NCBI RefSeq assembly: GCF_053078305.1 | Contig: NZ_CP166879.1 | DNA length: 64,000 nt | Reading direction: 5' to 3' (one strand) | Shown here: positions 37,595-52,757 of the stretch, piece by piece | How the letters are laid out: each line of letters opens with the position of its first letter | How positions within the stretch are numbered: the first letter of the stretch is position 1 | Notes under the pieces: generated by a model | The model's input: the letters and a program-made list of their open reading frames with translations, nothing else | Told to the model about the DNA's origin: nothing | The model's database searches: none | Position numbers and translations under genes: made by a program

Positions 37595-37772
37595 TCAGTA
37601 AATCTGAGGATTTTATGCGCAAAAACAATGACTTTTTCTGTCTGCCGTTTATACAATCTGAATTACGTCTGTTTTTTGAACAACGATAAATCAGCAAACA
37701 TTCTCAAATAAAGATTGCCTCCATAGTCCACATGGTGTAACACTATGTGTTATATAAAATGCAGAGGCAGGT

Positions 37773-38144
37773 ATGCGAATTTTCAAAAACGCCTGGTTTG
37801 AACGTTTCGCCCGAAAACATCGGATTTCCGATAAATCGCTGCGCGAAATCGTGGAGCAGGCCGATAAGGGGATCATATCCGCAAATTTGGGTAGTGGTGT
37901 CATTAAACAAAGATTAGCCCGAAGTGGTGGCGGAAAATCAGGCGGTTACCGGACAATAATTTTTTACCGCGTTGCAGAAAAAGCCTTTTTCATCTACGCA
38001 TACGCAAAGAATGAACGAGAGAATATCACCGCTATAGAGGAAAATGCTTTTCGAAAAGCCGCTCCCCATGTCCTCAATCTTACTGATGAACAGCTGGCAC
38101 AATTGATTCTACAAGGCCAGTTCACGGAGGTACCCAATGAGTAA
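37773..38144 (+). CDS. Type II toxin, Gp49/RelE-like (DUF891-like)
   Basis: 123 aa; ...GGYRTIIFYRVAEKAFFIYAYAKNERENITAIEE...; 8-nt overlap with downstream HTH gene. Confidence 0.6.
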   Translation: MRIFKNAWFERFARKHRISDKSLREIVEQADKGIISANLGSGVIKQRLARSGGGKSGGYRTIIFYRVAEKAFFIYAYAKNERENITAIEENAFRKAAPHVLNLTDEQLAQLILQGQFTEVPNE

Positions 38145-38454
38145 AAATTACCGCAGTGATGCACTTGCATCTGTACATGAAATGATGGAGTCACTCCATG
38201 ATATCGGTGCAATCACAAAACAAACTATGCGCGAATTCGATGAAACTTGTCTTCAGCCTGCGCCGGTAATGTCTCCAGAAAGGATCCGTGCACTGCGAGA
38301 ACGAGAGCATCTGTCTCAACCTGTTTTTGCCAGATACCTCAACGTCAGTAAAAACCTGATATCAGACTGGGAACGAGGAGTGAAACGCCCGGGAGGTGCA
38401 GCTCTTCGGCTTCTTTCAGTTGTCGAGAAAAACGGGATCCAGGTAATATCCTGA
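38137..38454 (+). CDS. XRE-family HTH antitoxin / regulator
   Basis: 105 aa; ...LREREHLSQPVFARYLNVSKNLISDWERGVKRP... helix-turn-helix. Confidence 0.6.
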   Translation: MSKNYRSDALASVHEMMESLHDIGAITKQTMREFDETCLQPAPVMSPERIRALREREHLSQPVFARYLNVSKNLISDWERGVKRPGGAALRLLSVVEKNGIQVIS

Positions 38455-38556
38455 TATTCTAATACAACAAAACCCGCCGAAGCAGGTTAAGTGCGGGTGC
38501 GTTGAGGATGCCTGGCACATCAGAGGTGGCGAGGGATTTCTCCCTCGCCTGGTCTC

Positions 38557-38712
38557 TTACTCCTCAGGTTCGTAAGCTGTGAAGACAGCGACCTCCGTCT
38601 GGCCGGTTCGGATTCGTACCTCGCAGAGGTCTTTCCTCGTTACCAGTGCCGTCACTATGACGGTTAAACAGATGACGATCAGGGCGATTAACATCGCCTT
38701 TTGCTGCTTCAT
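38557..38712 (-). CDS. hokD: Hok-family type I toxin (HokD/RelF-like)
   Basis: MKQQKAMLIALIVICLTVIVTALVTRKDLCEVRIRTGQTEVAVFTAYEPEE, internal start of track ORF (a mok-like upstream extension). Confidence 0.9.
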   Translation of the reverse strand: MKQQKAMLIALIVICLTVIVTALVTRKDLCEVRIRTGQTEVAVFTAYEPEE

Positions 38713-38983
38713 AGCCTGCTTCTCCTTGCCTTTCGGCACGTAAGAGGCTAACCTACATTTGTGAGACATAGATTGGGCCTCAGATTAATGTTAAGCGTCT
38801 TGCAGGACGCGAAATGTTAACTGGGGCTTTTCTCTATCTGCCTTTTGGTGTTCATGCCTGAGACAGATAGCCTCAAGCACCCGCAGCGATTTTACAGAAA
38901 TAAGTTATTATTTTCTATCTCACCCTTCACTTATCTCATTCCTAGCTATACTCATCGTTCACACAACATTAAAGGGCATAAAA

Positions 38984-39157
38984 ATGACCGTTCATGGTAT
39001 ACAGGAAGGCAGTATTGTTAACTTACGTGAAAAAGATGGGGAATGGCTTGTAGTACAAACTATTAAAAACGACGACCTTACATATCAACTCCGAAATACA
39101 GATACCAGCGAAGAAGTAAACGTCGCACTTCAGGACATTATCTCCCCAAATAAATAA
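38984..39157 (+). CDS. Small hypothetical protein (57 aa)
   Basis: Read by eye: MTVHGIQEGSIVNLREKDGEWLVVQTIKNDDLTYQLRNTDTSEEVNVALQDIISPNK; AAAGGG RBS. Confidence 0.3.
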   Translation: MTVHGIQEGSIVNLREKDGEWLVVQTIKNDDLTYQLRNTDTSEEVNVALQDIISPNK

Positions 39158-39279
39158 TCAAATTAGCGGGGCGAACAATGCCCCGCACTGTGCTACTTAT
39201 CATCCCCAGCGGCAAATCGAATACACCACCAGCGCCACCGCCATTGCAATACCAACATTTGAGAAGGCTTCAGGCCAGC

Positions 39280-39633
39280 TCATTGGCGCACCTCCTTCGG
39301 CGGTTCTGGTAGCGACATCCAGTGTGTGGCTTCACACACGATGGGCGCACCGAAACACTGCGCATACTGGAAGTCACCCGTATTATCCAGGTTAAAACCT
39401 GTAAACTGTTCACCCGTGCTGGACACAAACAGTTGTACATCAACACCAACTGGCGGCATTCGCTCACTACAGCTTATCCAACCATCCGGAGTTACCGGAG
39501 AATTGCCAGCCTTGCGCATGGCAATCTCCATGATTTCAACCATATCTCCTGGTGGAATTTTACAAAGTTGCCCAATACATTTCTGCTGCCTGGCATATTC
39601 GAGGATGTGCTCCAGCTTGATACGATTAATCAT
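39280..39633 (-). CDS. DUF551-like phage protein
   Basis: 117 aa; ...WISCSERMPP...; nin region. Confidence 0.5.
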   Translation of the reverse strand: MINRIKLEHILEYARQQKCIGQLCKIPPGDMVEIMEIAMRKAGNSPVTPDGWISCSERMPPVGVDVQLFVSSTGEQFTGFNLDNTGDFQYAQCFGAPIVCEATHWMSLPEPPKEVRQ

Positions 39634-39983
39634 GATTTATCTCCCTGAAGCATGGCTTCGCGGCAGTCGTTCCAGCCTTCAGCATAATCACTATACGCAA
39701 GAGGCCAACCGTTTATGTATTCACGCGGCAACTTATCAGGCACTGGCGGGGCGGCGTATAGCTGGTGCGTTCCATCAGGCAGCGAGTGACCAACATACTC
39801 ACCGAACCCGTCAACACACATGCACCCATCTTCAATAATACATGAAGCTACAGGCTTCGCTTCCAGCGATGCCAGTGCGATAAGAGCCAGCTCACGAATT
39901 TCACCGCCGTCTATATCGTCAATGTCATCGCGGCCAGAAATGTTAGCCAGCCATTGCAGTCGCTCTTTGGTAATAGTGGTCAT
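39630..39983 (-). CDS. Hypothetical nin-region protein
   Basis: 117 aa; stop/start overlap with neighbours. Confidence 0.45.
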   Translation of the reverse strand: MTTITKERLQWLANISGRDDIDDIDGGEIRELALIALASLEAKPVASCIIEDGCMCVDGFGEYVGHSLPDGTHQLYAAPPVPDKLPREYINGWPLAYSDYAEGWNDCREAMLQGDKS

Positions 39984-39984
39984 C

Positions 39985-40329
39985 TCACTCTCCTTCTATG
40001 CGAATACCAGCAGCAGTCAGTACTGCATTGACCTCATCAGCGTAGTAGTACGTTAATCCACTTGATGATTTAGCCAGCTTGAATGGTTCTGGTAACTTCA
40101 CTGTGCGGGACTCCTGCTCGTCGATACGCTGTTTTGCTTCCTCCAGTTCATCCAGCAAATCAGCGATAATATCCACTTCACGATGACGGATTTCACGCTT
40201 AAACGCAGCCAAAGCTGCATCACAATCCTGCTCAGCGTTTGGACTGTCTGGTTTCTCCTGATACCACGCCAGCATCGACCGATAGTTTTGTGCTGCCTCA
40301 CGCAGCGCCTGATAATTAATCCCACTCAC
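39985..40329 (-). CDS. Hypothetical protein (start uncertain)
   Basis: Possible GTG start with AAGGAGG RBS inside track ORF 39985..40509. Confidence 0.35.
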   Translation of the reverse strand: MSGINYQALREAAQNYRSMLAWYQEKPDSPNAEQDCDAALAAFKREIRHREVDIIADLLDELEEAKQRIDEQESRTVKLPEPFKLAKSSSGLTYYYADEVNAVLTAAGIRIEGE

Positions 40330-40441
40330 TGGTTGCCTCCTTTGTGGATCTGCGCTGCGATGCACGAAAAAAAAAGACTCCCGCGTATGACTGTTAAGAG
40401 CTGGTGCGAACGCCGCGTTAAGAACGGCAGCATCACAGCCG

Positions 40442-40762
40442 TCATTGATATAGAGCGCAATTTTTTCTCCAGGCGCGCTTTGGCTTCCTGCAACTGCATA
40501 CCCCGGCACGCACGCGGGATATACTCAGCAATTTGAGCGATAGATTTTTCGTTCTGTTTAAACATGCTTCACCTCGACAGGCTTGATGGTGTCGATCAGT
40601 AGTCGGCGGCGCGTATTTTCTGCAAAGTGGCGGCGTCCGGTTTCTTTGTGGTAAAACTCGTTTTTGTCGACGACCCACATCCGCTCCGTCTGGTGCAATT
40701 TTTTTTACCTGCGGACCGTCTTTGGTGATCACGATGCCGGTATGGGTTTTTACGATTGTCAT
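40442..40762 (-). pseudogene. ORF whose plausible reading frame changes at a homopolymer run (possible frameshift, or separate short gene from internal ATG)
   Basis: After MTIVKTHTGIVITKDGPQVKK the track frame becomes low-complexity and basic; the alternative frame reads ...MWVVDKNEFYHKETGRRHFAENTRRRLLIDTIKPVEVKHV and ends overlapping the next ATG. Confidence 0.25.
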
Positions 40763-40861
40763 GCCACCACCTCTTCGAATTTCAATTGTTCACCCCAGAT
40801 TTCACATGACTCTGAACACGAGCCGGTATCGAATCGCCTGGCCTGCACCATCGCCTGATAG

Positions 40862-41047
40862 TTAATCTTCATCATCCTCACCCCACTCATCACAATAAGC
40901 TTCAACCGGAGTTTTTCCTGCTTCATAGTCATCACGCCATGCTTCAGCATCGGCGGCACTTCCACCGCGTAACTCTGCATAGTCCATTAACAGTTCATGC
41001 CATTCTTCAAAACTGGCGTTATATTTAGTTGAACCAAAATCAGCCAT
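40862..41047 (-). CDS. Small acidic protein
   Basis: 61 aa; track ORF. Confidence 0.35.
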   Translation of the reverse strand: MADFGSTKYNASFEEWHELLMDYAELRGGSAADAEAWRDDYEAGKTPVEAYCDEWGEDDED

Positions 41048-41222
41048 TTTGTTCTTCCTCTTCGTCTTTTATTTCGTGATATGAGTAATTGCAGTAGTTA
41101 AAGAAAATTTCTTTTGCTTCGTCATGAATTTCATCAGGTGTTGCGTCATCGTCCACTTCGAATACATCCTCGAAACCTCCACCGGCTATTCCCGTTTCAA
41201 TAATTATTTTGAACTTTCGCAT
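41040..41222 (-). CDS. Small acidic protein
   Basis: 60 aa; track ORF. Confidence 0.35.
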   Translation of the reverse strand: MRKFKIIIETGIAGGGFEDVFEVDDDATPDEIHDEAKEIFFNYCNYSYHEIKDEEEEQNG

Positions 41223-41369
41223 TTCACTACCACCCTGCCGGGCGGTCTCCTGATGTTCTGAGGGTGCAGGAATCCCTCCTGTTAAGGATTAAATTTTATT
41301 TACAGTGCTGATTTTAATTATTCAGATCTGGATTATGCTTTCTCTTTTACCTGCCGTAGTTCCTGGTAA

Positions 41370-41675
41370 TTAATTTCGCTCACTGGTTGCCTCCTGGAAA
41401 ATAACGGCATGTCCCAGTTTCTCCGCCAGTGCCAGTTCTGCCTTAGCGCCTGCCGACCGCTGCCAGCCTTTCAGCATATAAACCGCATCCACACAACGAA
41501 TCATTGCCATGCAAATATCCATGTAATGTGGCTGAGTCAGCCCGTCCGGAAGTACTGCCGGGTTTAAAACGGTATGCCCTTCCCGTTTCAGTGCTTCTTC
41601 CGCCTTGTGAAATGCCTCGCAGTTGAAATTTTCATATCCCGTCATTGGACCGGCGATATAAACCCTAACCCTCAC
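41370..41675 (-). CDS. DUF4406-like (nucleoside 2-deoxyribosyltransferase-like) protein
   Basis: 101 aa; MRVRVYIAGPMTGYENFN... Confidence 0.45.
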   Translation of the reverse strand: MRVRVYIAGPMTGYENFNCEAFHKAEEALKREGHTVLNPAVLPDGLTQPHYMDICMAMIRCVDAVYMLKGWQRSAGAKAELALAEKLGHAVIFQEATSERN

Positions 41676-41926
41676 TCCTGAATCCTCCTGTCGAAATAAA
41701 CGTAGTTATTCACTGTGCGCAACTTCATTCCGAACTTTTCGGCAATTTCCCGTCGGGGTACGCCGCGCTGATACAGTTGCCGCGTCAGCTCAATATCACG
41801 CTGTGAATATTTTGCCGACGGGTGAAAATCGCCACGTAACATCATGCTGATGCCCAACTCCCGTGCCTTCGTTCTCACTGCCGCTTCAGTTCGTCCGATA
41901 AGTGCGCCAATGCTTTTCACCTTCAT
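41672..41926 (-). CDS. Small HTH DNA-binding protein
   Basis: Internal start MKVKSIGALIGRTEAAVRTKARELGISMM... in track ORF 41672..42073. Confidence 0.4.
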   Translation of the reverse strand: MKVKSIGALIGRTEAAVRTKARELGISMMLRGDFHPSAKYSQRDIELTRQLYQRGVPRREIAEKFGMKLRTVNNYVYFDRRIQE

Positions 41927-41985
41927 AGTTCCCGCACACTGACGGAGTATCAGGATTTCAGCCCGGCACCACTTCTTCCAGCCAC

Positions 41986-42699
41986 TCACTGCTGCTCTCT
42001 GGTGGCGGTAATATCCCGGAGAATATCCCGGCACTTGTTCAGCTCCCGCAGAGCGGCACAGACTCGCTCCCACTTCTGAACCTGACCTTTTGCCCGGCGC
42101 AGCTCGCGGTTAGCCACATGCAGCGATGGTAGAATCAGGTCATCTGCTTTCGTTTCGGTGACCGATGGCTGTAACTTCACAATGTCTTCCACGATTTCTG
42201 TTTTCATTTCTTCCTGTGTTTCCGCTTCCCGGACTGGTAACGCAACACCTGCTGGCTGAGGAAAGGCTTTACCATCGTTTTTCTCTGCGGATGTAACTTC
42301 CAGCTCTGCTGGTAAATCAGCGCCCGGTATGCAGTAACGAAATTTACCGCCCTGATTCACGCGAATCAGACGCCCTTTGCTGATTGCCATGGCCAGCGAT
42401 GAATTCGCCCGGCGGGAGGTAATCCCGAACATCAGTGCCAGCTCATCCGCCGTTTGTGGGCCATGTTGTTCAATCGCCTCAGTCAGCATTTGCGCTGTCA
42501 CTTTCGGTACCGGTGACACTGGTTCACTTTCACCAGCCTGAATCAGCCACCACATCGACCCCTTGTTATCCGCTTCACCGCGGCGCTTCAGTTTCCACAG
42601 TTCGTTGACAGCATCTTCGCGGCTGATTCCAAGGCGCGATGCCACTACCTGTGAAGAGGCTCTTTTCAGTGCTTTCAGTGCGTCAAATACGGTTTCCAT
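41986..42699 (-). CDS. Hypothetical replication-module protein
   Basis: 237 aa immediately downstream of the DnaC-like gene. Confidence 0.4.
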   Translation of the reverse strand: METVFDALKALKRASSQVVASRLGISREDAVNELWKLKRRGEADNKGSMWWLIQAGESEPVSPVPKVTAQMLTEAIEQHGPQTADELALMFGITSRRANSSLAMAISKGRLIRVNQGGKFRYCIPGADLPAELEVTSAEKNDGKAFPQPAGVALPVREAETQEEMKTEIVEDIVKLQPSVTETKADDLILPSLHVANRELRRAKGQVQKWERVCAALRELNKCRDILRDITATREQQ

Positions 42700-42728
42700 T
42701 AAAATTTCCTCCGGATAAAAATTACTTC

Positions 42729-43469
42729 TCAGTTCCTGTGCTGGCTGACGTTCGGACGCCAGCTCTCCCAGTTAAACGTCACCCAGCGACCACCGTTCAT
42801 GGACATGCGGTCCATCACCCGCTCGCCGAGAAGTGTATTCATCGCTGCATGGTTAAGATTTGTCAGCATCCCCACACTGAGTAACGATGCCGTTCTGCGG
42901 TCAACAATCTGATTCAGCGTGACCTGCTCATTACGCGTATCCCGTTGCATGCCAATTTCATCCAGTACCAGCAGGTCAACGCCACACAATCCCTGCAAAA
43001 ATTTTTCGCCCGAGTTTTTGTTGTCGTAGCTGCCATGTAACGCCAGCATCACATCCGCCACTGTTATCACAATCACACTGCGACCTTTCGCCAGAAGGTG
43101 GTTGCCAATAGCCGCCGCCAGGTGGTTTTTTCCTGTGCCAGGCCTGCCACTGAAAACAAAATTCGTACAGCCGCCTTCCAGCTCTGCCGCAATGGATTTC
43201 GCCTGACTCAGGGCATGGCGCTGACCATCGTTCTGCACCCGGTAGTTACCGAACGTACACTTCCGGTGAAGCGGCTGGATACCGGAGCGGTTAATGATTT
43301 TTTCAACCCGCGTCTGATGATTCAGACGATTAACCTCCTCGCTTCGCTTACGCCCTTCAGCAAGCTGCCATTCCCGCCACTCCGCCACCGTACGGTACGG
43401 AGGGATTGCATCCTGCGGCACAAATCTGCTGACTCTTGCCAGAACACCACCTGACGTAATGTTTTTCAT
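42729..43469 (-). CDS. DnaC-like helicase loader (AAA+ ATPase)
   Basis: 246 aa; Walker A GRPGTGKNHL, Walker B LLVLDEIG. Confidence 0.85.
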   Translation of the reverse strand: MKNITSGGVLARVSRFVPQDAIPPYRTVAEWREWQLAEGRKRSEEVNRLNHQTRVEKIINRSGIQPLHRKCTFGNYRVQNDGQRHALSQAKSIAAELEGGCTNFVFSGRPGTGKNHLAAAIGNHLLAKGRSVIVITVADVMLALHGSYDNKNSGEKFLQGLCGVDLLVLDEIGMQRDTRNEQVTLNQIVDRRTASLLSVGMLTNLNHAAMNTLLGERVMDRMSMNGGRWVTFNWESWRPNVSQHRN

Positions 43470-43475
43470 GATGCG

Positions 43476-44465
43476 CTACCCCCTGAAACCCGGCGGAATT
43501 TCGGTATCCGGTTCAGAAATATGATTCACGCAACGCTGCGCGGGACCACGCCACAGTCGAATAACCAGTTCATCCCATTTCTCACGGAGTTTTTCCGGGC
43601 TCTTGATGTTTTTTATCCAGAACGGATCCCGTTGTGCCCGGCTGAACATTTCGCAAATTTGTCTGTGACTTCTTCCATCCAGCATCCGCATTGTGCGCAC
43701 GTCATTGGCCCACGCCGTCCAGTTGGGCTCTTTCGGTCGCGTGATCTCACCATCGTCACTGGCAGCCTGTTCGTACAGGTTTACAACCCGCCCCCAGATC
43801 CACTGCGCACACGTCAAATCCTCCCGGGTTCCCCACTGGCGTTTTTTCACGCTGAACACAACTGCATCAGGATGGCGGGTTAAAAACGCCTGTTCAGCCG
43901 TCAGCTCGTCCGGTTGCGAAGCGTCCGGACAAGAGAGTTTTTTATTCTCTGTTGTATTCTCTGTTGTATTCTCTGTTGTATTCTCTGTTGTATTCTCTGT
44001 AGGATCATCGGGCCATTTTGACCTGATGACATTGGGCCGTTTTGAACCAATGGAACGTTTCATTTTGACCTCTTCCATCGTGTCATTTTGACCTGATGGA
44101 GTGGCGCATTTTGACCCGATGGATTCGTTCACTTTGCCATCATCTAAAAGCGCGCTATCGTAGTTAATTGTGTAAAAATTAGTCATATCACGCTTCGATT
44201 TATTGAGCTTTTCGCTACGCAAAAGCCCCAGCGCTTTCAGACTTGCAAACGCACGCTTTAACGTTGACTCTGACCAGAACGGAAACTGTTCCAGCCATTG
44301 TTCCGTTGTGTTGTAAATCCAGCGAACGCCATCACATTCCATGCCGGAACTGGTATCCCTCAACCAGTAATGCAGTTGCTGCAACACAATGGCTTCGTTT
44401 AAACCAATCTTCATCGCCAGCTGTGTGTTTATAACCAGCGGGCGTTCAGCAAAAAGAAGGCTCAT
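43476..44465 (-). CDS. Replication initiator (O-like) containing origin iterons
   Basis: Internal start in track ORF 43476..44507; central TENTTENTTENTTENTTEN encoded by 12-bp tandem repeats. Confidence 0.65.
   Translation of the reverse strand: MSLLFAERPLVINTQLAMKIGLNEAIVLQQLHYWLRDTSSGMECDGVRWIYNTTEQWLEQFPFWSESTLKRAFASLKALGLLRSEKLNKSKRDMTNFYTINYDSALLDDGKVNESIGSKCATPSGQNDTMEEVKMKRSIGSKRPNVIRSKWPDDPTENTTENTTENTTENTTENKKLSCPDASQPDELTAEQAFLTRHPDAVVFSVKKRQWGTREDLTCAQWIWGRVVNLYEQAASDDGEITRPKEPNWTAWANDVRTMRMLDGRSHRQICEMFSRAQRDPFWIKNIKSPEKLREKWDELVIRLWRGPAQRCVNHISEPDTEIPPGFRG
43941..44001. repeat. About five tandem 12-bp repeats (TTCTCTGTTGTA), candidate origin iterons
   Basis: Seen directly in sequence inside the initiator gene. 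Confidence 0.7.
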
Positions 44466-44967
44466 AATTCCATCCGGCTTTTTGTTGGTACTGGTGACGA
44501 TAGGCACGCTTGAAAGCGATTGCTTTTTCTATAAGCTCGTCTGTCTCACGTTCCACAACAGCTGGATCTGCAAAAAGCAGCCCGGACTCCACCACATCGC
44601 CATATTCTTTGTTTAACCCGGCAATCATGTACGTAATGCTTTTTCCGTCAGTAATTTCGCGGTACAACCTGAAATCACTAATCCGGATAGCCTCCATAAT
44701 TGCCGGAATCAGCGCCGTGAATTTTTCTCGCTTATCCCTGGTGTCGATAGCCTTCCAGCGTTCGAATATCTTCACCCGGTTAACGCCAAGCGCACGCTGA
44801 TCAACCCCGCCATCATCAAGCGTGACACGCTGAACATCGATGTTCGGGCGTTCCTGTAGAGCCCAGAAGGCTTCAGTAATTAATATCGTCGCCTGCTCCT
44901 GCGTCATTCCTGGTCGGCTTATCCAGGCATCCAGGGCATCGCGTGCCTGCTCAAGGGTGATTTTCAT
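44446..44967 (-). CDS. Hypothetical protein in the cII slot
   Basis: 173 aa between cro-like gene and initiator. Confidence 0.4.
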   Translation of the reverse strand: MKITLEQARDALDAWISRPGMTQEQATILITEAFWALQERPNIDVQRVTLDDGGVDQRALGVNRVKIFERWKAIDTRDKREKFTALIPAIMEAIRISDFRLYREITDGKSITYMIAGLNKEYGDVVESGLLFADPAVVERETDELIEKAIAFKRAYRHQYQQKAGWNYEPSFC

Positions 44968-45181
44968 TGTTCAACCGCCCCGCCCGCTTCGTCTTACGAT
45001 ATTCGTCATAAACTTTGGGGTCATACTGAAGCTCCCCGCCGGATGCCTCTTGCAGGCGCATCGCGCGACCTTCAGGTACTAGCTCCCCTTTCCAGCTATA
45101 AAGCGAAGCCAAACGAATACCAGCAGCTTGTGCGAGTTTTGTTTTTGAACCGAAATACAAAAGTGCGTCAGTTTTAAGCAT
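44951..45181 (-). CDS. dicC: Cro-like repressor DicC
   Basis: MLKTDALLYFGSKTKLAQAAGIRLASLYSWKG...; divergent from dicA. Confidence 0.85.
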   Translation of the reverse strand: MLKTDALLYFGSKTKLAQAAGIRLASLYSWKGELVPEGRAMRLQEASGGELQYDPKVYDEYRKTKRAGRLNNENHP

Positions 45182-45264
45182 TTAAAGCACCCTGAATGTT
45201 AGTCATGACTAACAAAATAGATGTTAACAAAAACATAGTCAATAAGATTTAGCATTAGCTAACT

Positions 45265-45672
45265 ATGGATACAAAAAATTTAACCATTGGCGAACGCATT
45301 AGATATCGCCGAAAAAGCCTCAAATACACCCAAAGGTCTCTTGCTAAAGCCCTGAAAATTTCTCATGTATCGGTTTCACAATGGGAACGGGATGACAGCG
45401 AACCGACAGGGAAGAATCTTTTTGCCCTCAGCAACGTACTGCAGTGCTCGCCAACATGGATTCTATTTGGCGATGAAGACAAGCAGCCATCACCACCTAT
45501 TGAGGAGCCAGTTGCTCTATCCCCCAAAGAACATGAGCTCCTTGAGCTTTTTAATGCATTGCCTGAATCAGAACAGGATGCTCAGCTCACCGAGATGCGC
45601 GCCCGAGTAAAAAATTTCAACAAACTCTTTGAAGAGTTATTAAAAGCCCGTCAACGAACAAACAAAAGATAA
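45265..45672 (+). CDS. dicA: Immunity repressor DicA (HTH XRE)
   Basis: MDTKNLTIGERIRYRRKSLKYTQRSLAKALKISHVSVSQWERDDSEPTGKNLFALSNVLQCSPTWILFGDEDKQP... Confidence 0.9.
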   Translation: MDTKNLTIGERIRYRRKSLKYTQRSLAKALKISHVSVSQWERDDSEPTGKNLFALSNVLQCSPTWILFGDEDKQPSPPIEEPVALSPKEHELLELFNALPESEQDAQLTEMRARVKNFNKLFEELLKARQRTNKR

Positions 45673-45838
45673 CGCAATCAATGCGTTATCTTTTTGATCG
45701 CTAAAAATGTTAGCCATAACAAACAAAAGCACTTGACCGGATTGTTAGTCATAGCTAATCTTACTTACATCAAGACACCGCACGGTGTTCTCAGCAAACA
45801 GTTCCGCTACCCCGGCGTTAAGGGGAAATGAGGTCAAC

Positions 45839-45991
45839 ATGGATACGCTCAATCTTGGCAACAACGAATCTCTGGTATGCGGCGTGTTTCCCAACCAGGA
45901 CGGCACGTTTACCGCGATGACGTATACCAAAAGTAAAAAGTTTAAAACCGAAGCTGGCGCGCGTCGCTGGTTAGCCAGAAACACTAACTGA
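45839..45991 (+). CDS. ydfA: YdfA-like small protein
   Basis: MDTLNLGNNESLVCGVFPNQDGTFTAMTYTKSKKFKTEAGARRWLARNTN. Confidence 0.55.
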   Translation: MDTLNLGNNESLVCGVFPNQDGTFTAMTYTKSKKFKTEAGARRWLARNTN

Positions 45992-46249
45992 TTAGCACCA
46001 GTAAAAACAGGTTGCCACTGGTTAATTTACCCTGAAAAGTCAGGGCATAACACGAAAGCGCACGGAGAAGCTCGTCTCTCTGTACTTTGTCGCTAAATTT
46101 AATTCGACCGTGCGCTTCCGGTTGTGGCAATCCGCGAAATGGCGCGGCGGTAAGTATGGCTGGGGTTTCCTCCATTGCTCCAGAAAATGCACCGGGTTGT
46201 CAGGTTGACCATACGCTTAAGTGACAGCCCCGCCACAATACCCATGTGT

Positions 46250-46300
46250 AGTCTTTGGTGGCATCAGTTCTACTCCGTGACTGCTCTGCCACCCTTTTTA
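46250..46300 (+). ncRNA. dicF: DicF-like small RNA
   Basis: ...TGGTGGCATCAGTTCTACTCCGTGACTGCTCTGCCACCC followed by TTTTT; similar to my recollection of E. coli DicF with terminal hairpin. Confidence 0.55.
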
Positions 46301-46788
46301 AAGTGAATTTTGTGATGCGGTGAATGCGGCTAAGCGCACGCGGAACAGTTAAAACCGTAAAGTGGTCTTTTACGGGGCGTAACGGGCATACTTCTGTATT
46401 CCGGCGTTAATTGTTAACTGGTTAACGTCACCTGGAGGCACCAGGCACTGCATCAACAAAGTTCACTTCGGTGATGAAGGGTAAGAGAAAATGTTGAATG
46501 TAGCTATTGAAAACCAGAACGGGTGGAATTATAGTGCACCTGCACCTCATAAAACGGGTGCCGGGCGTGGAAACCCGATGATGATCAACGCGCATAACCG
46601 CGCTCAGGCGGTTTTTTTTATGCGTCAAGCACAGCCACATTCAAATTATGGTGGGGCGTGCAGGGCAGCTGCAAGGCTGGCCGGCTCCGTTGGTCACCGG
46701 TATTTCCACCCCTGTACGTCTCACCACCTTTATGGTCGTGGAAAACCTCGGTGGTGAGTTATTTAAACTGATCAACGAGGCTGCCATC

Positions 46789-47346
46789 ATGGCTACTACC
46801 CTTACCCTTTCTCACCCTGACGTAACCATCGAAAATGGTCGCGCAGTCACCACGTCTGTTGCAGTTGCAGAGTTCTTCCACAAACTGCATAAAAACGTCA
46901 TTCAAAAAATTGAAGCTCTGGAATGTTCCGACGAATTCACTGAGCTTAATTTTCAGCCCAGCGAATACACCGACACAACCGGTCGCAAACTCCCAATGTA
47001 CCAAATCACCAAAAACGGCTTCGTTTTCCTGGTGATGGGCTTCACCGGCAAAAAAGCCGCTGCATTTAAAGAAGCCTACATCGCTGAGTTCGATCGCATG
47101 GAGAAAGAACTGCGCCAGAATAACGCCCCGTCTCCCGACAAAATGATTCACGGGGACGGACGTACCCTGGTTATCCGTCTCGACGAACACGGCAATATCA
47201 AATTCACTGAAACCGTTCCGGACGGCGCAATGGTCTGCACCCTGGATACCTTCCAGTTTTATCTGGAAAAACAAGGCTGGACTCTTGTAAACCGGAGCGC
47301 AATTAAAAATATGACTGTGGAGCAATTACTAAAAATTCATTGTTGA
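46789..47346 (+). CDS. Rha-family phage regulatory protein
   Basis: Internal start MATTLTLSHPDVTIENGRAVTTSVAVAEFFHKLHKNVIQKIEALE... in track ORF 46648..47346. Confidence 0.65.
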   Translation: MATTLTLSHPDVTIENGRAVTTSVAVAEFFHKLHKNVIQKIEALECSDEFTELNFQPSEYTDTTGRKLPMYQITKNGFVFLVMGFTGKKAAAFKEAYIAEFDRMEKELRQNNAPSPDKMIHGDGRTLVIRLDEHGNIKFTETVPDGAMVCTLDTFQFYLEKQGWTLVNRSAIKNMTVEQLLKIHC

Positions 47347-47356
47347 GGACGCGATA

Positions 47357-47545
47357 ATGGAAACGTTATTACCAAACGTTAATACGTCTGAAGGGTGTTT
47401 TGATATTGGTGTTCTGCTCAGTAACCGGGAGTTTACTGAAGATGCCATTAAGATGAGAAAATATGAGCCTTATCTTCTCAATGATAATTCCATACTCTCC
47501 AGAATTGCCCTTCTTAAACTTGGTATTTTCGGGGGGCAGCAGTGA
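47357..47545 (+). CDS. dicB: Cell division inhibitor DicB-like
   Basis: METLLPNVNTSEGCFDIGVLLSNREFTEDAIKMRKYEPYLLNDNSILSRIALLKLGIFGGQQ. Confidence 0.8.
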   Translation: METLLPNVNTSEGCFDIGVLLSNREFTEDAIKMRKYEPYLLNDNSILSRIALLKLGIFGGQQ

Positions 47546-47730
47546 CTTCTGCATTTGCACTGGTAATGACTGTTTTTCTTATAACGGGTGAGCCACAGAA
47601 TGTGATTACCGGAATTTATGCCAGTAAAGAATCATGCCTCCGGGCAAGAGACGAGCAAAAAATTTCTGGCGAATGCCTCCCGTTAAAAAAAGTATCGCTG
47701 TACCTGAATAACGAAATACCGGCTGGATAA
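47542..47730 (+). CDS. ydfD: YdfD-like lysis protein
   Basis: MTSAFALVMTVFLITGEPQNVITGIYASKESCLRARDEQKISGECLPLKKVSLYLNNEIPAG. Confidence 0.65.
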   Translation: MTSAFALVMTVFLITGEPQNVITGIYASKESCLRARDEQKISGECLPLKKVSLYLNNEIPAG

Positions 47731-47822
47731 TCCACCAGCCATATTAACGCCATACCCGTTGATTAAGCATGCCAGCAATGGCAGGGGTTCGTACAACCTT
47801 AAAATAGTTATGAGGTTTATCC

Positions 47823-50261
47823 ATGAGCACTGATAAAGAAGAATTTTCGCTATATTGCGAAGCAAAAAATGACAAGGTCAGAAAACGCCTTGGGATTAAA
47901 GGGGGTTTTTACTGGACTACAGCAAAAAAATTATCTGTTGCCATCTCACGGTGCGTTGTTGCAATGGACGAGGCAGGCTACGACGCTGATGATTTCAAAA
48001 AACCTGTCCGCGTCCATTTCCCCGTTGTGAATGACCTTCCACCGGAAGGCGTGTTTGATACCGAATTCTGCAACCGCTATGAAAAAGGCGGGGAAGATGG
48101 CATCACAATGATATTTATAGCGCCTTCCCCCTCAGTTCAGGACAAACCAGCCAGCACTGACAATACCAACGTCAATGGCGAAGACATGGCTGAGATTGAG
48201 GATAATATGCTCCTGCCAATTTCCGGTCAGGAACTGCCCATTCGCTGGCTTGCGCAACATGGCTGCGAAAAACCGGTAACGCACGTTTCACGGGAAGAAC
48301 TTCAGGCATTACATATCGCACGAGCTGAAGAACTGCCGGCTGTTACTGCCCTGGCTATTTCCCACAACACAAAGCTGCTCGACCCGCTGGAGATTCGCGA
48401 CCTTCACAAACTGGTACGCGACACAGACAAAGTTTTCCCTAATCCCGTTAATTCCAGTCTGGGGTTAATGACTGCTTTTTTCGAAGCATACCTGAACGCT
48501 GACTATACCGATCGAGGTCTGCTGACAAAAGAGTGGATGAAAGGAAATCGTGTTTCTCGCATCACCCGCACGGCTTCCGGTGCAAATGCCGGTGGCGGAA
48601 ATAAAACGGATCGTAATCCTGATTTAGTACACACCCTCGATACTCTGGATGTGGAGATTGCAGCAGCCACACTTCCGATGGATTTTAATATTTATGAAAT
48701 ACCCGTGAGCGTTTATCGTCGCGCAAAAGAAATCGTCCTGAAAAAAGAAAGTCCGTTCAGGGAATGGTCCCCAGCACTTCGCGCAACCCCTGGTATCCTG
48801 GACTATTCCCGCGCAGCTATTTTTGCACTTATCCGGAGCGCCCACCCTGAGTTTTATCACTACCCGGGACGTCTTCAGGGGTATATCAATGCCAACCTGA
48901 CAGAGACCGATCATGAGAATCCCACAACTGAAACTCTCACGGCTGCCCGGCATACACCGGAAAAAGATATCCTGGAAGAAATTAACGGAGGACTGGCTGC
49001 TGAGTGCAAAACAGAAGAAGAAAAAAATGATGAAGAAAACCCGCAACCATCTGGCGCAATGGCAGATGAACAGGCAACGGCTGAAACAATGGCAGCGGAT
49101 ACAGTTGAACATCATCAGGACCCGCAGCCGCTGGATGACAAGTCACAGGTAAAAGTTACTGCTGAAGAAGTAAATAAAATTATGGAGGCAGCAGACATCA
49201 GTCGACCAGATGCCGACAAATTGCTTGCCGCTTCTCGTGGTGAGTTTGTTGAAGGGATTAGCGACCCGAATGATTCGAAATGGGTTAAGGGGATTGAAAC
49301 CTGCGATTCTGTGAACCAGAACCAGCAAGAAACGGAACAGAACGGTCAGAAAGCGGAACAAAACAGCCCAAATGCGTTACAAAACGAGCCAGAAACGAAA
49401 CAACCTGAACCAGTCGTGCAACAGGAAGAGGAAAAAGTTTGTACCGCATGCAATCAGACTGGTGGTGGTAACTGCCCTGATTGTGGCGCAGTGATGGGTG
49501 ACGCAACCTACCAGGAGACATTCAACGAAGAAAGCCAGGATGAAGCCCGGGAAAAAGATCCGGAGGAAATGGAAAGTGCCGGACTCCCGAACAAGGAGTG
49601 CACCGAAGGCGATCAACATGCCAATGGCAATAATGAAACAGGCGAGACAGCAAATCCCTTAATTAAGGTGAACGGTCATCGTGAAATCACATCCACCAGC
49701 AGGTTGTGGCACCATCTGATGATTGACCTTGAAACAATGGGCAAAAATCCTGACGCACCAATAGCCTCAATAGGCGCTGTATTTTTCGATCCACAAACCG
49801 GAGAGCAGGGGCCTGAATTCAGCAAAATAATTGATATGGGTACATGTGGCGGCACTGTAGACATAAGCACCATCGAATGGTGGCTTCAACGCTCTGGCGA
49901 AGCCCGTGCCGCCATTTTAGCTGATCGAATACCGCTTGATGATGCGCTTTTACAATTACGGGAATTTATAGACGAAAACTCCGGTGAGTTTTTTGTTCAG
50001 GTCTGGGGAAATGGAGCCAACTTCGACAACGTGATTTTACGCCGTTCATATGAACGGCAGGAGATCCCCTGCCCGTGGCGTTACACCAATGATCGCGATG
50101 TAAGAACGATGGTCGCTCTGGGGTTGGTGATGGATTTCGATGCCCACAACGTCACCACATTTGAGGGTGAACGCCATAATGCCCTGCACGATGCGCGTTA
50201 CCAGGCAAAATACGTTTCAGCTATCTGGCAAAAACTGTTCCCGAGTCAGGCTGATTTTTAA
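47823..50261 (+). CDS. Large early-region protein with C-terminal DEDDh-type 3'-5' exonuclease domain
   Basis: 812 aa; C-terminal MIDLETMG..., ...WGNGANFD..., ...[11 protein letters not shown]...; acidic linker; [16 protein letters not shown]ys cluster. Confidence 0.6.
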
Positions 50262-50319
50262 TGTTCAACCCTGATCGCCGCTAACCGCATATAGTTAGCG
50301 GCGGTTATGAGATATAGCT

Positions 50320-50523
50320 ATGAGCAGCTTATTTTTAACCGAAGATGAATTGCTAATATTAACGGGCTGCAAATATGCAAGCCACCAGCGCAACTGGTTA
50401 ATAAAAAATGGGCTTCCGTTCTATACCAATCGTAGTGGAAAACCGATCGTCAGTCGGGAACTGTTTACCTGTAGAAACACTTTACCACCACGTGAGGCTG
50501 AACCTGATTTCGGTGCGATCTAA
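50320..50523 (+). CDS. Excisionase-like protein (DUF4224-like)
   Basis: 67 aa immediately upstream of integrase; ...LTEDELLILTGCKYASHQRNWLIKNGLPF... Confidence 0.5.
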   Translation: MSSLFLTEDELLILTGCKYASHQRNWLIKNGLPFYTNRSGKPIVSRELFTCRNTLPPREAEPDFGAI

Positions 50524-51548
50524 TGGGAAGACGAAGGAAAAATCCCGAACACGAAAAATTACCGCCAAAGGTATACCCCAATAAATATAGTTATGTATGG
50601 AAACCGACATCCAGAGAATCTGTAACCTTAACTGCAATCGAGGATGGTTTAGCCGCATTATGGAAAAAGTACGAAGAAACAATTAACCATCGCGATCGGG
50701 CAATGACATTTGGGCGTTTGTGGGAAAAATTTCTCGCCAGCGCCTATTACAGCGATCTTAGTCCCAGAACGCAAAAAGATTATCTGCAACATCAAAAAAA
50801 GCTGCTGGCCGTATTCGGTAAGGTGCTGGCCGATTCTGTAAAACCAGAGCACATCAGACGATACATGGACAAAAGGGGCGAGCAGAGTAAAACGCAGGCA
50901 AACCATGAAAAAAGCAGCATGTCACGCGTTTACAGTTGGGGGTATGAACGAGGGTATGTAAAGGCTAATCCTTGTGCCGGTGTAAGTAAATTCAAGGCCA
51001 AAAACCGAGAGCGCTATGTGACTGACAAAGAATACCAGGCCGTATTAAGCGTGGCTCCTGTGCCTGTTTTTATCGCAATGGAAATTGCATACCTGTGCGC
51101 AGCAAGGATTTCCGATGTGTTGTCTCTGAAATGGGAACAGATCGGAAACGACGGGATCTTTATCCAGCAAGGTAAAACAGGAAAGAAACAGATAAAAGCC
51201 TGGAGTCCCCGTCTGCAATCAGTTATAGAAAAAGCTAAACAGCTACCCAAGTCAGCCTATGTAATCAGCAATCAGTACGGCAACCGTTACATGTATAAAG
51301 GATTTAATGAAATGTGGGTTGAGGCAAGAAATTTGGCTGGACAAATATCAGGGATCGCGACGGATTTTACATTCCATGACCTTAAAGCCAAGGGGATATC
51401 AGATTACGAAGGTAGTAGCCGGGATAAGCAACTTTTCTCTGGTCACAAGACCGAAGGACAGGTGCTAATCTATGATAGAAAAGTAAAGATCTCACCCACA
51501 CTGGATGTACCATTACCCCAGAATATTCCAACAAAATATTCCAAGTAA
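50523..51548 (+). CDS. int: Tyrosine integrase
   Basis: 341 aa; phage integrase family; adjacent to tRNA 3' end. Confidence 0.9.
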   Translation: MGRRRKNPEHEKLPPKVYPNKYSYVWKPTSRESVTLTAIEDGLAALWKKYEETINHRDRAMTFGRLWEKFLASAYYSDLSPRTQKDYLQHQKKLLAVFGKVLADSVKPEHIRRYMDKRGEQSKTQANHEKSSMSRVYSWGYERGYVKANPCAGVSKFKAKNRERYVTDKEYQAVLSVAPVPVFIAMEIAYLCAARISDVLSLKWEQIGNDGIFIQQGKTGKKQIKAWSPRLQSVIEKAKQLPKSAYVISNQYGNRYMYKGFNEMWVEARNLAGQISGIATDFTFHDLKAKGISDYEGSSRDKQLFSGHKTEGQVLIYDRKVKISPTLDVPLPQNIPTKYSK

Positions 51549-51600
51549 TTCCAAGTGTGATTTTCGTCATTGACTTAATGATGTGTAAGTGATTGAATTC

Positions 51601-51690
51601 TGGTGGAGAGAGGGGGATTTGAACCCCCGGTGGAGTTGCCCCCACTCCGGTTTTCGAGACCGGTCCGTTCAGCCGCTCCGGCATCTCTCC
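51601..51690 (-). tRNA. serU: tRNA-Ser (anticodon CGA), serU-like; prophage attachment site
   Basis: GGAGAGATGCCGGAGCGGCTGAACGGACCGGTCTCGAAAACCGG...GGTTCAAATCCCCC...CCA read from minus strand. Confidence 0.85.
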
Positions 51691-51783
51691 GTTCAGATGG
51701 TTGCCATGATGCCAGGAAATTTGGCATTTTAACAGTCCCTGTCCGTGCAATTTTGTTCAAGTGACGAGTTTGCGAGCAAAACG

Positions 51784-52581
51784 ATGATTAAGTGGCCCTG
51801 GAAAGTACAAGAATCAGCACATCAAACTGCCCTTCCCTGGCAGGAAGCACTATCGATCCCCCTTTTAACGTGTCTGACGGAACAGGAACAAAGCAAATTA
51901 GTCACTCTTGCCGAACGTTTTTTACAGCAAAAGCGGCTTGTTCCTTTACAGGGCTTTGAACTGGATTCATTAAGAAGCTGCCGGATAGCACTTCTATTTT
52001 GCCTACCCGTTCTGGAGTTAGGACTGGAATGGCTGGATGGTTTTCATGAAGTCTTAATTTATCCTGCGCCATTTGTGGTCGATGATGAATGGGAAGACGA
52101 TATCGGTCTGGTGCATAACCAACGTATTGTTCAGTCAGGTCAGAGCTGGCAGCAAGGGCCTATCGTTTTGAACTGGTTGGATATACAAGATTCTTTTGAT
52201 GCTTCTGGTTTTAACCTGATTATTCATGAAGTCGCTCATAAGCTGGACACCCGTAACGGCGATCGCGCCAGCGGAGTTCCCTTTATTCCGTTGCGTGAGG
52301 TTGCTGGCTGGGAACACGATCTTCATGCTGCAATGAACAACATTCAGGAAGAAATCGAATTGGTTGGCGAGAATGCGGCGAGCATTGATGCTTATGCTGC
52401 CAGTGATCCTGCTGAATGTTTTGCCGTACTTTCTGAATATTTCTTTAGCGCCCCAGAACTTTTTGCTCCTCGTTTCCCTTCATTGTGGCAACGTTTCTGC
52501 CAATTTTATCAACAAGATCCTTTGCAGAGACTGCATCACGCTAATGATACAGACTCGTTTTCGGCGACGAATGTTCATTAA
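51784..52581 (+). CDS. mtfA: Mlc titration factor MtfA (zinc-dependent peptidase)
   Basis: [20 protein letters not shown]...; HEVAH motif; internal start of track ORF 51745..52581. Confidence 0.9.
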
Positions 52582-52681: not shown

Positions 52682-52757
52682 TCCTCTGTAGTTCAGTCGG
52701 TAGAACGGCGGACTGTTAATCCGTATGTCACTGGTTCGAGTCCAGTCAGAGGAGCCA
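52682..52757 (+). tRNA. asnT: tRNA-Asn (anticodon GTT)
   Basis: TCCTCTGTAGTTCAGTCGGTAGAACGGCGGACTGTTAATCCG...GGTTCGAGTCC...CCA. Confidence 0.9.

What the first reader, a model, noticed from the sequence alone, without database searches (positions are those of the whole stretch)
50320..51700. Prophage-chromosome junction at tRNA-Ser(CGA)
The integrase gene ends ~50 nt from the 3' end of a serU-like tRNA, and the tRNA 3' terminus reads ...CTCTCTCCACCA rather than ...CTCTCTCCGCCA as I recall for K-12 serU. This is consistent with phage-supplied reconstitution of the tRNA 3' end at the att site. mtfA and tRNA-Asn follow immediately, fixing the chromosomal context.
Basis: partly seen in the sequence, partly recalled or inferred. 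Interest (0 to 1): 0.35.

Follow-up and report, generated by a model that had tools for sequence, protein, structure and literature searches.

The report
Prophage end inside serU tRNA gene
This is the ordinary, well-known junction where a lambda-like prophage has integrated into the E. coli serU (tRNA-Ser CGA) gene and rebuilt its 3' part from phage DNA; the only unusual point is a rare G-to-A change at the tRNA's discriminator base in that phage-supplied part.

Summary
tRNA-Ser(CGA) lies at 51601-51690 (-). An intact tyrosine integrase (50523-51548, +) stops 52 nt from the tRNA 3' end, and mtfA and tRNA-Asn follow. The tRNA reads ...CTCTCTCCACCA (A73), whereas K-12 has G73.

Window 1-51600 is a lambdoid prophage whose far end lies just beyond the window's left edge. 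In two proxy genomes, one identical across the junction, the far end carries a displaced 62-nt serU fragment (anticodon stem to CCA). That fragment has the K-12 bases, including G73. attP-configured viral contigs carry the same segment between the two phage arms. SNP partition places strand exchange in the 19-nt anticodon stem-loop.

A73 is not typical of this phage. Only 3 of 5,426 genomes share the window's tRNA. One more has A73 from a related element, whose displaced copy keeps G73. No A73 locus examined was unoccupied.

serU is a documented prophage site (O157 Sakai Sp14). Verdict: already known, low interest, with a small curiosity about tRNA identity.

The parts
1..51600 (.). Lambdoid prophage. 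Late and tail genes are on the - strand and early-left genes on the + strand. It is truncated by the window's left edge.
   Evidence: There is mosaic colinearity with the annotated serU prophage of STEC1585, from the DUF4376/tail-fibre genes to int, and with 2012EL-2448. Rfam finds DicF, isrK, C4, sok, STnc100 and a phage tRNA cluster.
50320..50523 (+). Excisionase-like gene (DUF4224); its stop overlaps the int start codon.
   Evidence: Pfam PF13986, E 2.7e-14. PHROG 1266 'excisionase', E 4e-20.
50523..51548 (+). Tyrosine integrase, 341 aa, intact, transcribed towards the tRNA.
   Evidence: Pfam PF00589, 44 bits. PHROG 1 integrase, E 8.5e-53. It aligns to lambda Int structures with R195, K218, H285, H308 and Y317 in place, and K288 at the lambda R311 position.
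51525..51554 (-). Three direct copies of TTGGAAT (ATTCCAA on the + strand): candidate arm-type Int-binding sites of the P' arm, overlapping the int 3' end.
   Evidence: Three of the four occurrences of this 7-mer in the 64-kb window lie within these 30 nt. Further copies lie in the far-end (P) arm of STEC1585 and in attP contig L006. Their function is inferred.
51549..51600 (.). Phage-derived spacer (P' arm) between the int stop and the tRNA 3' end.
   Evidence: It is unrelated to the K-12 sequence downstream of serU and matches the int-side flank of attP-configured contigs L005-L012.
51601..51662 (-). 62-nt att identity block: tRNA positions 29-90, from the anticodon stem through CCA.
   Evidence: The block is repeated at the far prophage end in STEC1585 (L002 about 6864-6925) and in 2012EL-2448 (L023), and it is present in attP-like contigs.
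51644..51662 (-). Interval that must contain the strand-exchange site (anticodon stem-loop, CGGTCTCGAAAACCGGAGT).
   Evidence: It is bounded 5' by the C/T difference at tRNA position 28 between attB and the P arm, and 3' by the variable-arm SNP. In the proxies, all phage-type SNPs are in the rebuilt tRNA and all K-12-type SNPs are in the displaced fragment. The exact 7-bp overlap is inferred.
51601..51690 (-). serU, tRNA-Ser(CGA), intact chimeric gene: the 5' part is chromosomal and the 3' part is phage-derived.
51604..51604 (-). Discriminator base A73 (K-12 and nearly all E. coli have G73).
   Evidence: It is the only tRNA difference from the nearest allele, 2012EL-2448.
51632..51643 (-). Variable-arm stem carrying the compensatory pair G48:C59 (K-12 has A48:U59) at its end coordinates 51643 and 51632; this is the common phage-type signature.
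   Evidence: The G:C plus G73 allele is exact in 1,179 of 5,426 genomes.
51784..52581 (+). mtfA, a chromosomal flank gene.
   Evidence: NCBIfam NF011939 equivalog, 541.9 bits, and K-12 synteny.
52682..52757 (+). asnT-like tRNA-Asn(GTT), a chromosomal flank gene.

Best explanation
Window 50320-51700 is the int-proximal junction (attL in lambda's naming, with int next to the bacterial arm) of a lambdoid prophage integrated into the E. coli serU gene.

The phage attP carries a 62-nt copy of serU running from the anticodon stem to CCA. Its tyrosine integrase exchanges strands in the anticodon stem-loop. After integration, the 5' 28-47 nt of the expressed tRNA are chromosomal, and everything from at least the variable arm to CCA is phage DNA. 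The original 3' fragment is displaced to the other prophage end, next to yodB, just outside this window.

The variable-arm G:C pair is the normal phage allele. A73 is a rare G-to-A transition within the phage-supplied segment. It most likely arose in the element-borne copy, which is not itself an expressed tRNA, and was installed in serU by integration. Int/Xis-mediated excision would restore G73.

Shown: the junction anatomy, the displaced fragment and attP segment in relatives, the SNP partition, and the allele frequencies. Inferred: the exact overlap site, the arm-site function, the timing of the A73 mutation, and any effect on charging.
For: Anatomy of the junction.

Occupied versus empty site: K-12 homology starts at the tRNA CCA end, and the sequence to its left is phage DNA.

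Displaced fragment: STEC1585 (junction 100% identical) has the partial serU copy with A48/T59/G73 followed by the K-12 yodB-side flank at the far prophage end. 2012EL-2448 shows the same.

attP: nine IMG/VR contigs join the far-end phage flank, the 62-nt block (G:C pair, G73) and the int-side flank.

Int and Xis calls.

Clustered TTGGAAT repeats lie in both arms.

Population: 1,143 of 5,426 complete genomes have the int-serU-mtfA junction. The tRNA alleles are K-12 type 4,161; G:C+G73 1,179; G:C+A73 3; A:T+A73 1-2.

A73 is always at an occupied site. It occurs on the window/STEC1585/L014 allele, on the roughly 7%-diverged int allele of 2013C-3033/JNEC-KY176, and in E-ge-1. The E-ge-1 remnant has an Int 58% identical in amino acids, and its displaced fragment keeps G73.

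Literature: serU is a recurrent STEC prophage site (PMC8767318, PMC7067040). Sakai Sp14 sits between yodB and tRNA-Ser(cga) (PMC8190617), and circularised Sp14 has been detected (PMC2669165). The principle of tDNA regeneration plus a displaced fragment, and the anticodon-centred attP class, are described in PMC4383910.
Against: The source genome is not in the collections; the best match to window 1-24000 is 98.6% identical over 98% of the query. Its own far-end att was therefore not seen and is inferred from proxies.

No attP-configured sequence carrying A73 was found in IMG/VR, metagenomes or species-representative genomes. A post-integration origin of A73 is therefore not excluded.

The attP search pattern itself required the G:C allele, so it cannot show that all attPs carry it.

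About 80 genomes have the G:C pair with an empty K-12-type flank. The pair is therefore not an absolute marker of occupancy.
Confidence: 0.88

Rival explanations
1. The junction is as described, but A73 arose after integration. It would be a chromosomal point mutation in a dispensable tRNA gene of one lysogen lineage and was never carried by a free phage.
For: The nearest allele (2012EL-2448) differs from the window at only 3 of 901 positions around the junction, one of which is G73/A73, so the change is very recent. No A73 attP was found in any collection. serU tolerates loss of UCG reading: supD amber-suppressor strains are viable (established knowledge).
Against: If A73 were simple chromosomal drift, it should appear mostly in the more than 4,100 genomes with a K-12-type serU. 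All four A73 loci inspected in complete genomes, plus the IMG/VR loci L013 and L014, abut an integrated element. They sit on two to three diverged element backgrounds. With about 22% of loci occupied, three independent events all falling in occupied loci has a probability of about 0.01. This is a rough figure that assumes independence. The window and STEC1585 share A73 despite divergent prophage interiors and a 98.4%-identical shiA flank.
Confidence: 0.3
2. The three differences from K-12 are ordinary strain polymorphisms of chromosomal serU and have nothing to do with the phage. The phage crosses over at the extreme 3' end or outside the gene.
For: About 80 complete genomes, such as F070, have the G:C variable-arm pair with an unoccupied K-12-type flank.
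Against: In STEC1585 and 2012EL-2448, the displaced fragment at the far end begins in the anticodon stem and carries the K-12 bases at all three sites, while the expressed tRNA carries the other bases. attP-like contigs carry the whole 62-nt block with the G:C pair. The G:C allele count (1,179) tracks the count of phage junctions (about 1,140).
Confidence: 0.03
3. A73 is a sequencing or assembly error.
For: It is a single base, and it is very rare in the population.
Against: The identical tRNA is present in three independent complete assemblies from China, the USA and Japan, and in an IMG/VR prophage contig taken from an isolate genome (L014). It is a substitution rather than an indel in a homopolymer run.
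Confidence: 0.01
4. A73 is a selected, functional change. Elements of this integrase family would deliver a serU allele with altered aminoacylation identity (less serylation, some Leu/Tyr charging) that benefits phage or host.
For: G73 of E. coli tRNA-Ser is reported as an identity determinant in vivo and an antideterminant against LeuRS and TyrRS (PMC9976931). A73 recurs on several element backgrounds.
Against: Its frequency is very low: 3 of about 1,140 lysogens of this phage type, and 4-5 of 5,426 genomes overall. That pattern is what is expected of a neutral or mildly deleterious variant. The same review says G73 does not matter for unmodified transcripts in vitro, and that SerRS recognises mainly tertiary shape and the long arm. 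No functional data exist.
Confidence: 0.05

Closest known systems
Lambdoid prophage Sp14 of E. coli O157:H7 Sakai and the serU prophages of O121:H19 and O145:H28 STEC
   Same: The integration site is the same, between yodB and tRNA-Ser(cga)/mtfA (PMC8190617, PMC8767318, PMC7067040). The int-side flank and integrase family are the same: the O157, O145 and ST131 junctions align with the window apart from a few SNPs. The gene organisation is lambdoid, with an ExoVIII-type recombination gene (PMC2669165). Circular excised Sp14 has been detected experimentally (PMC2669165).
   Different: The window's prophage is a different mosaic: many blocks are 82-97% identical or absent relative to relatives. 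Its int is intact, whereas PGAP marks int as frameshifted in the O157, O145 and ST131 examples. It also carries A73 instead of G73.
Anticodon-centred ('A' sublocation) tRNA-gene integration by tyrosine integrases (Williams 2002, cited in PMC4383910; Islander database)
   Same: The identity block runs from the anticodon stem to the 3' end. The gene is regenerated by element DNA and a 3' fragment is displaced to the far end. int lies next to the regenerated tDNA (PMC4383910).
   Different: Nothing differs in principle. The block is long (62 nt) because tRNA-Ser has a long variable arm, and it carries three mismatches between the attP-derived and attB-derived copies in this lineage.
Lambda Int / attP architecture (core sites flanked by arm-type sites; Xis as directionality factor)
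   Same: The integrase aligns with lambda Int structures (E about 1e-10). A small xis-like gene lies directly upstream of int. Short direct repeats cluster in both arms next to the core.
   Different: The target is a tRNA gene rather than the intergenic attB of lambda. The residue at the lambda R311 position is K288 in every family member seen. Arm-site binding has not been tested.
Classical tRNA-reconstituting prophages such as P22 at thrW, DLP12 at argU and P4 at leuX (from memory, not checked here)
   Same: The phage carries the 3' part of the target tRNA gene, so the lysogen keeps an intact gene.
   Different: The tRNA target and the integrase are different. In those textbook cases the supplied segment is usually described as functionally equivalent to the original; here it changes the discriminator base.

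Membership tests
Element integrated in a tRNA gene (Islander principle: regenerated tDNA plus displaced fragment) | An intact tRNA gene directly abuts element DNA, with an integrase gene at that end. | tested here: met
   tRNA-Ser(CGA) is at 51601-51690. The int stop is 52 nt from its 3' end, and K-12 homology ends at CCA.
Element integrated in a tRNA gene (Islander principle: regenerated tDNA plus displaced fragment) | A displaced 3' fragment of the same tRNA gene, in direct orientation, lies at the other end of the element. | not testable with these tools
   For the window itself there is no copy inside the window, and the source genome is not in the collections. The feature is met in the proxies STEC1585 (L002 about 6864-6925) and 2012EL-2448.
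Element integrated in a tRNA gene (Islander principle: regenerated tDNA plus displaced fragment) | The element's attP carries the tRNA segment between its two arms. | tested here: met
   Nine IMG/VR contigs have the far-end flank, the 62-nt serU block and the int-side flank. These may come from excised circles or from tandem prophages.
Anticodon-centred (class A) crossover sublocation | The attP/attB identity block starts in the anticodon stem and runs to the 3' end, and the crossover lies in the anticodon stem-loop. | tested here: met
   The block covers tRNA positions 29-90. SNP partition in two lysogens confines exchange to positions 29-47. The exact cleavage sites were not determined.
Tyrosine recombinase / lambda-Int-type phage integrase | A catalytic domain match above the curated threshold. 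| tested here: met
   PF00589 scores 44.0 bits against a cut-off of 27.1. PHROG 1 gives E 8.5e-53. Lambda Int structures match at E 6e-11.
Tyrosine recombinase / lambda-Int-type phage integrase | The catalytic residues R-K-H-R-H-Y are all alignable with lambda Int R212, K235, H308, R311, H333 and Y342. | tested here: inconclusive
   R195, K218, H285 and H308 align with the lambda Int residues, and Y317 is assigned from the LIYDRK motif because the alignment stops at residue 313. The R311 position is K288 (HDLK). This is conserved in all 16 family copies seen, including attP-configured contigs. Activity of the family is implied by the attP junctions and by the published Sp14 circles (PMC2669165).
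Excisionase (recombination directionality factor) | A small gene immediately upstream of int that matches excisionase families. | tested here: met
   The 67-aa ORF at 50320-50523 matches PF13986 DUF4224 and PHROG 1266 'excisionase', E 4e-20. Function was not tested; PMC2669165 doubted the Sp14 Xis.
E. coli serU (tRNA-Ser, anticodon CGA) | A CGA anticodon, a long variable arm, and the position between yodB and mtfA-asnT. | tested here: met
   There are 87 of 90 identities to K-12 serU.
E. coli serU (tRNA-Ser, anticodon CGA) | The discriminator G73 found in K-12 serU, reported as an identity determinant in vivo and an antideterminant against LeuRS and TyrRS. | tested here: not met
   The window has A73 at 51604, whereas at least 5,340 of 5,426 genomes have G73. 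The identity role of G73 is taken from PMC9976931. The gene is still serU by position and sequence; its charging behaviour is untested.
Lambdoid prophage | Lambda-like modular gene order: int-xis-recombination genes, immunity, replication, Q/lysis, and head and tail genes. | tested here: met
   The annotation of the colinear STEC1585 prophage shows this order, and the window aligns with it. The window also has DicF, isrK and C4, and a tRNA cluster upstream of the lysis genes.

The most novel reading that the evidence does not exclude
Integrative elements of this integrase family occasionally install a discriminator-mutant (A73) serU. This would turn the host's only tRNA-Ser(CGA) into a tRNA lacking the G73 antideterminant against LeuRS and TyrRS. 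The result would be a prophage-conferred change in UCG decoding fidelity or capacity that excision would reverse.
Probability: 0.07. Interest if true: 0.55.

Novelty: already known. Interest (0 to 1): 0.18.

Why it matters
The finding fixes the right-hand boundary of the prophage at window position 51600/51601 and defines the att block, which is useful for annotation. serU is already an established prophage hot spot in pathogenic E. coli, occupied in about a fifth of complete genomes, so the junction itself adds nothing new.

The one point of wider interest is that the phage-borne copy of a tRNA 3' segment is not itself under tRNA selection. It can therefore carry substitutions, here at an identity position, into the host's expressed gene. 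If A73 measurably changes charging, that would be a small, concrete example of prophages altering host translation through att-site sequence rather than through cargo genes.

Tried and rejected
- Search for the second att copy inside the window (exact 11-mers, and the 25-mer with 3 mismatches): none found. The window starts in the tail-fibre region, short of the far end.
- Assumed colinearity of the window with STEC1585 over its whole length: wrong. The window position predicted for yodB turned out to be tail genes, and BLAST showed a mosaic relationship.
- The INPHARED phage collection, searched for a free-phage attP: only two records at 88% identity. Both include the whole tRNA, so they are prophage excerpts, not attP.
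- Search for an attP carrying A73. The IMG/VR scan gave two hits, both intact tRNAs at occupied sites. The species-representative genome scan gave one unrelated MAG fragment. The metagenome scan gave ten unrelated environmental sequences.
- The far end of the 2013C-3033 prophage: it abuts potB rather than yodB, which points to a rearrangement involving another prophage site. It is therefore uninformative about the displaced serU fragment.
- Terminator and promoter scans around the junction: nothing above shuffle expectation.
- Williams 2002 could not be read and is cited only through other papers' reference lists.
Full report
**1. What is in the sequence**

ARAGORN places a 90-nt tRNA-Ser with anticodon CGA at 51601-51690 on the minus strand. 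Rfam's tRNA model agrees at 58.4 bits. The RNA folds as a cloverleaf with a long variable arm. Read in the sense direction, it ends ...GGTTCAAATCCCCCTCTCTCCACCA.

A 341-aa ORF at 50523-51548 (+) runs towards the tRNA and stops 52 nt from its 3' end. It is a tyrosine recombinase:
- Pfam PF00589 scores 44 bits.
- PHROG 1 'integrase' gives E 8.5e-53.
- It aligns with lambda Int structures.

A 67-aa ORF at 50320-50523 overlaps the int start. It matches DUF4224 and PHROG 1266 'excisionase'.

To the right of the tRNA lie mtfA (51784-52581; NCBIfam equivalog), tRNA-Asn (52682-52757) and a yeeJ-like ORF. This is the same order as in K-12.

**2. Comparison with an unoccupied serU**

K-12 MG1655 (L003) is homologous to the window from the tRNA CCA end rightwards. 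To the left of CCA the two sequences are unrelated.

Within the tRNA there are exactly three differences:
- The discriminator: window 51604, A73 versus G73.
- Two bases that pair with each other in the variable-arm stem: 51643 and 51632, G48:C59 versus A48:U59.

**3. The other prophage end**

The tRNA 3' segment has no second copy in the window.

The window is E. coli. 5,419 of 5,426 complete genomes match the 501 nt around the junction, and 1,143 have the whole int-serU-mtfA arrangement. The source genome itself is not in the collection (best 98.6% identity for the first 24 kb). Two relatives serve as proxies:
- STEC1585: 100% identical over window 51400-51900.
- 2012EL-2448: 3 differences in 901 nt, with a prophage that is colinear but mosaic relative to the window's.

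In both, the prophage runs from serU to the yodB side. Window position 1 aligns with the DUF4376/tail-fibre genes near the far end.

At that far end both genomes carry a partial serU copy starting in the anticodon stem...ATC|GGTCTCGAAAACCGGAGTAGGGGCAACTCTACCGGGGGTTCAAATCCCCCTCTCTCCGCCA|CTTTATCAATGAC.... This copy has the K-12 bases at all three variable positions and is followed by the K-12 sequence that normally lies downstream of serU.

**4. The phage copy**

An exact-pattern scan of IMG/VR found nine contigs with three elements in a row: the far-end phage flank, then the 62-nt serU block (G:C pair, G73), then the int-side flank and the integrase gene. That is the attP configuration. It could come either from excised circles or from tandem prophages. 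A caveat is that the search pattern itself contained the G:C allele.

Putting attB, attP and the two junctions side by side:
- The rebuilt tRNA has the chromosomal base at position 28 and the phage bases from position 48 onward.
- The displaced fragment has the reverse pattern.

Strand exchange therefore lies within positions 29-47, CGGTCTCGAAAACCGGAGT, which is the anticodon stem-loop (window 51644-51662). This is the 'anticodon-centred' class of tRNA integration sites (PMC4383910, citing Williams 2002). The likely overlap is the 7-nt loop, flanked by the inverted stem arms; this is inferred, not shown.

The 7-mer TTGGAAT occurs four times in the 64-kb window. Three of those lie within 30 nt at 51525-51554. 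Further copies sit in the far-end arm of STEC1585 and in attP contig L006. These are plausible arm-type Int sites.

**5. How unusual is A73?**

I queried all 5,426 complete E. coli genomes with 90-nt tRNA variants, where one mismatch drops identity below 99%.

| serU allele | Variable-arm pair | Discriminator | Exact matches |
|---|---|---|---|
| K-12 type | A:U | G73 | 4,161 |
| Common phage type | G:C | G73 | 1,179 |
| Window's allele | G:C | A73 | 3 |
| — | A:U | A73 | 1-2 |

A 71-nt junction probe matched 1,222 genomes but only STEC1585 exactly. About 1,140 of those genomes have the phage flank. About 80 (F070 type) have an empty K-12 flank together with the G:C pair. The G:C pair is thus the normal signature of this phage family, and A73 is a rare variant on top of it.

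A73 occurs in the following contexts, all at occupied sites:
- The window, STEC1585 and IMG/VR locus L014 share one int-att allele.
- 2013C-3033 and JNEC-KY176 carry an int allele with 101 substitutions across the 1.5 kb of phage DNA (int, xis and the exonuclease 3' end) and a different base after CCA.
- E-ge-1 has a 14-kb degraded prophage whose Int is 58% identical in amino acids. Its rebuilt tRNA has A73, and its displaced fragment has G73 plus the K-12 flank.
- L013 shows a similar flank in another genomic context.

No A73 locus that I inspected was unoccupied. The species-representative genome scan found no native A73 allele of this tRNA.

The nearest G73 allele, 2012EL-2448, is otherwise identical to the window in the tRNA and in the 37 nt of flank next to it. 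A73 is therefore a single recent transition.

My reading is that the element-borne partial copy is free to drift and that integration then installs the variant in the expressed gene. I could not find an attP carrying A73. A post-integration origin therefore remains a live rival, at about 0.3.

**6. Likely consequences**

[quoted passage not shown] It also states that SerRS relies mainly on tertiary shape and the long arm, and that G73 is an antideterminant against LeuRS and TyrRS (PMC9976931).

A73 could therefore lower serylation somewhat or allow trace mischarging. Two pieces of established knowledge, not tested here, argue that the tRNA is dispensable: the cmo5UGA serine tRNA also reads UCG, and supD (serU amber suppressor) strains are viable. 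Together with the very low frequency of A73, this fits a neutral or slightly deleterious variant better than a selected function.

**7. Relation to what is known**

serU is a documented prophage and integrative-element site in STEC O121:H19 and O145:H28 (PMC8767318, PMC7067040). O157 Sakai prophage Sp14 lies between yodB and tRNA-Ser(cga) (PMC8190617). Circularised Sp14 has been detected after induction (PMC2669165). The O157, O145 and ST131 junctions align with the window's. Regeneration of a split tRNA gene by element DNA, with a displaced fragment marking the far end, is the textbook principle behind the Islander database (PMC4383910).

The finding is therefore an already-known kind of feature, correctly read by the first stage. 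Three refinements were added here:
- The variable-arm pair as the usual phage signature.
- The crossover interval in the anticodon stem-loop.
- The rarity of A73 and its restriction, in every locus I inspected, to element-occupied sites.

**8. Limits**

- The source genome's own far end was not seen.
- Allele counts rest on BLAST identity bands, not on extracted sequences.
- The independence of the A73 backgrounds is argued from divergence, not from a phylogeny.
- No functional data exist for A73, for the arm repeats, or for the K288 integrase residue.

Noticed in passing
window 6290-6960: There are three tandem modules of about 230-240 nt (6319-6399, 6559-6639 and 6789-6869; 69-73% alike) between the tail genes. 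Each has a conserved TTTCTGAAWTTCTTCACATTT box, a -10-like hexamer and a stem-loop/T-run terminator. They look like small transcription units. None matches Rfam at the gathering threshold. STEC1585 lacks one unit (window 6496-6787).
   Followed up: partly
window 51384-51386 (Int residue K288); also L001, L005-L012 except L008, L014-L017, L019-L021 and L035: Every integrase of this serU-targeting family has H-D-L-K where lambda Int has H308-x-x-R311. The second catalytic arginine is a conserved lysine, even in the copy that is 58% identical.
   Followed up: partly
L018 (E. coli F070, NZ_AP023237.1) and about 80 other complete genomes: These are unoccupied serU loci with the K-12-type downstream flank, yet they carry the 'phage-type' G:C pair in the variable arm. 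This could be a scar from prophage loss by recombination within the 62-nt repeat, or a natural polymorphism.
   Followed up: no
L035 (E. coli E-ge-1, NZ_CP158503.1, 1184000-1198300): A 14-kb IS1-riddled prophage remnant at serU has a related Int and DUF4224 pair. Its identity block extends further 5' (GAACGGxCCGG...). The rebuilt tRNA has A73 and the displaced fragment has G73.
   Followed up: yes
L036 (E. coli 2013C-3033, NZ_CP027323.1, about 1996400-1997000): The tail-fibre end of the prophage whose int end is at serU abuts potB rather than yodB. This points to a chromosomal rearrangement involving prophages at two integration sites.
   Followed up: no
L015, L016 and L017 (O157:H7 3384, ST131 2822, O145:H28 RM12581): RefSeq annotates the serU-adjacent integrase as frameshifted in these three well-known lineages. 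It is intact in the window, STEC1585, 2012EL-2448 and 2013C-3033.
   Followed up: no
window 31164-31860, 38707-38882, 46243-46731 and 32982-33231: The prophage carries several Rfam-recognised RNAs. They are two STnc100 copies (-), sok (-), DicF, isrK and C4 antisense RNA (+), and a tRNA cluster of Arg(TCT), Arg(TCG) and Met(CAT) on the - strand.
   Followed up: no
window 51600-51605: In the window/STEC1585/2012EL-2448 allele the base after CCA is G, giving GAATTC. Most lysogens have A (AAATTC). This flank SNP is independent of A73, because 2012EL-2448 has G73 with GAATTC.
   Followed up: yes
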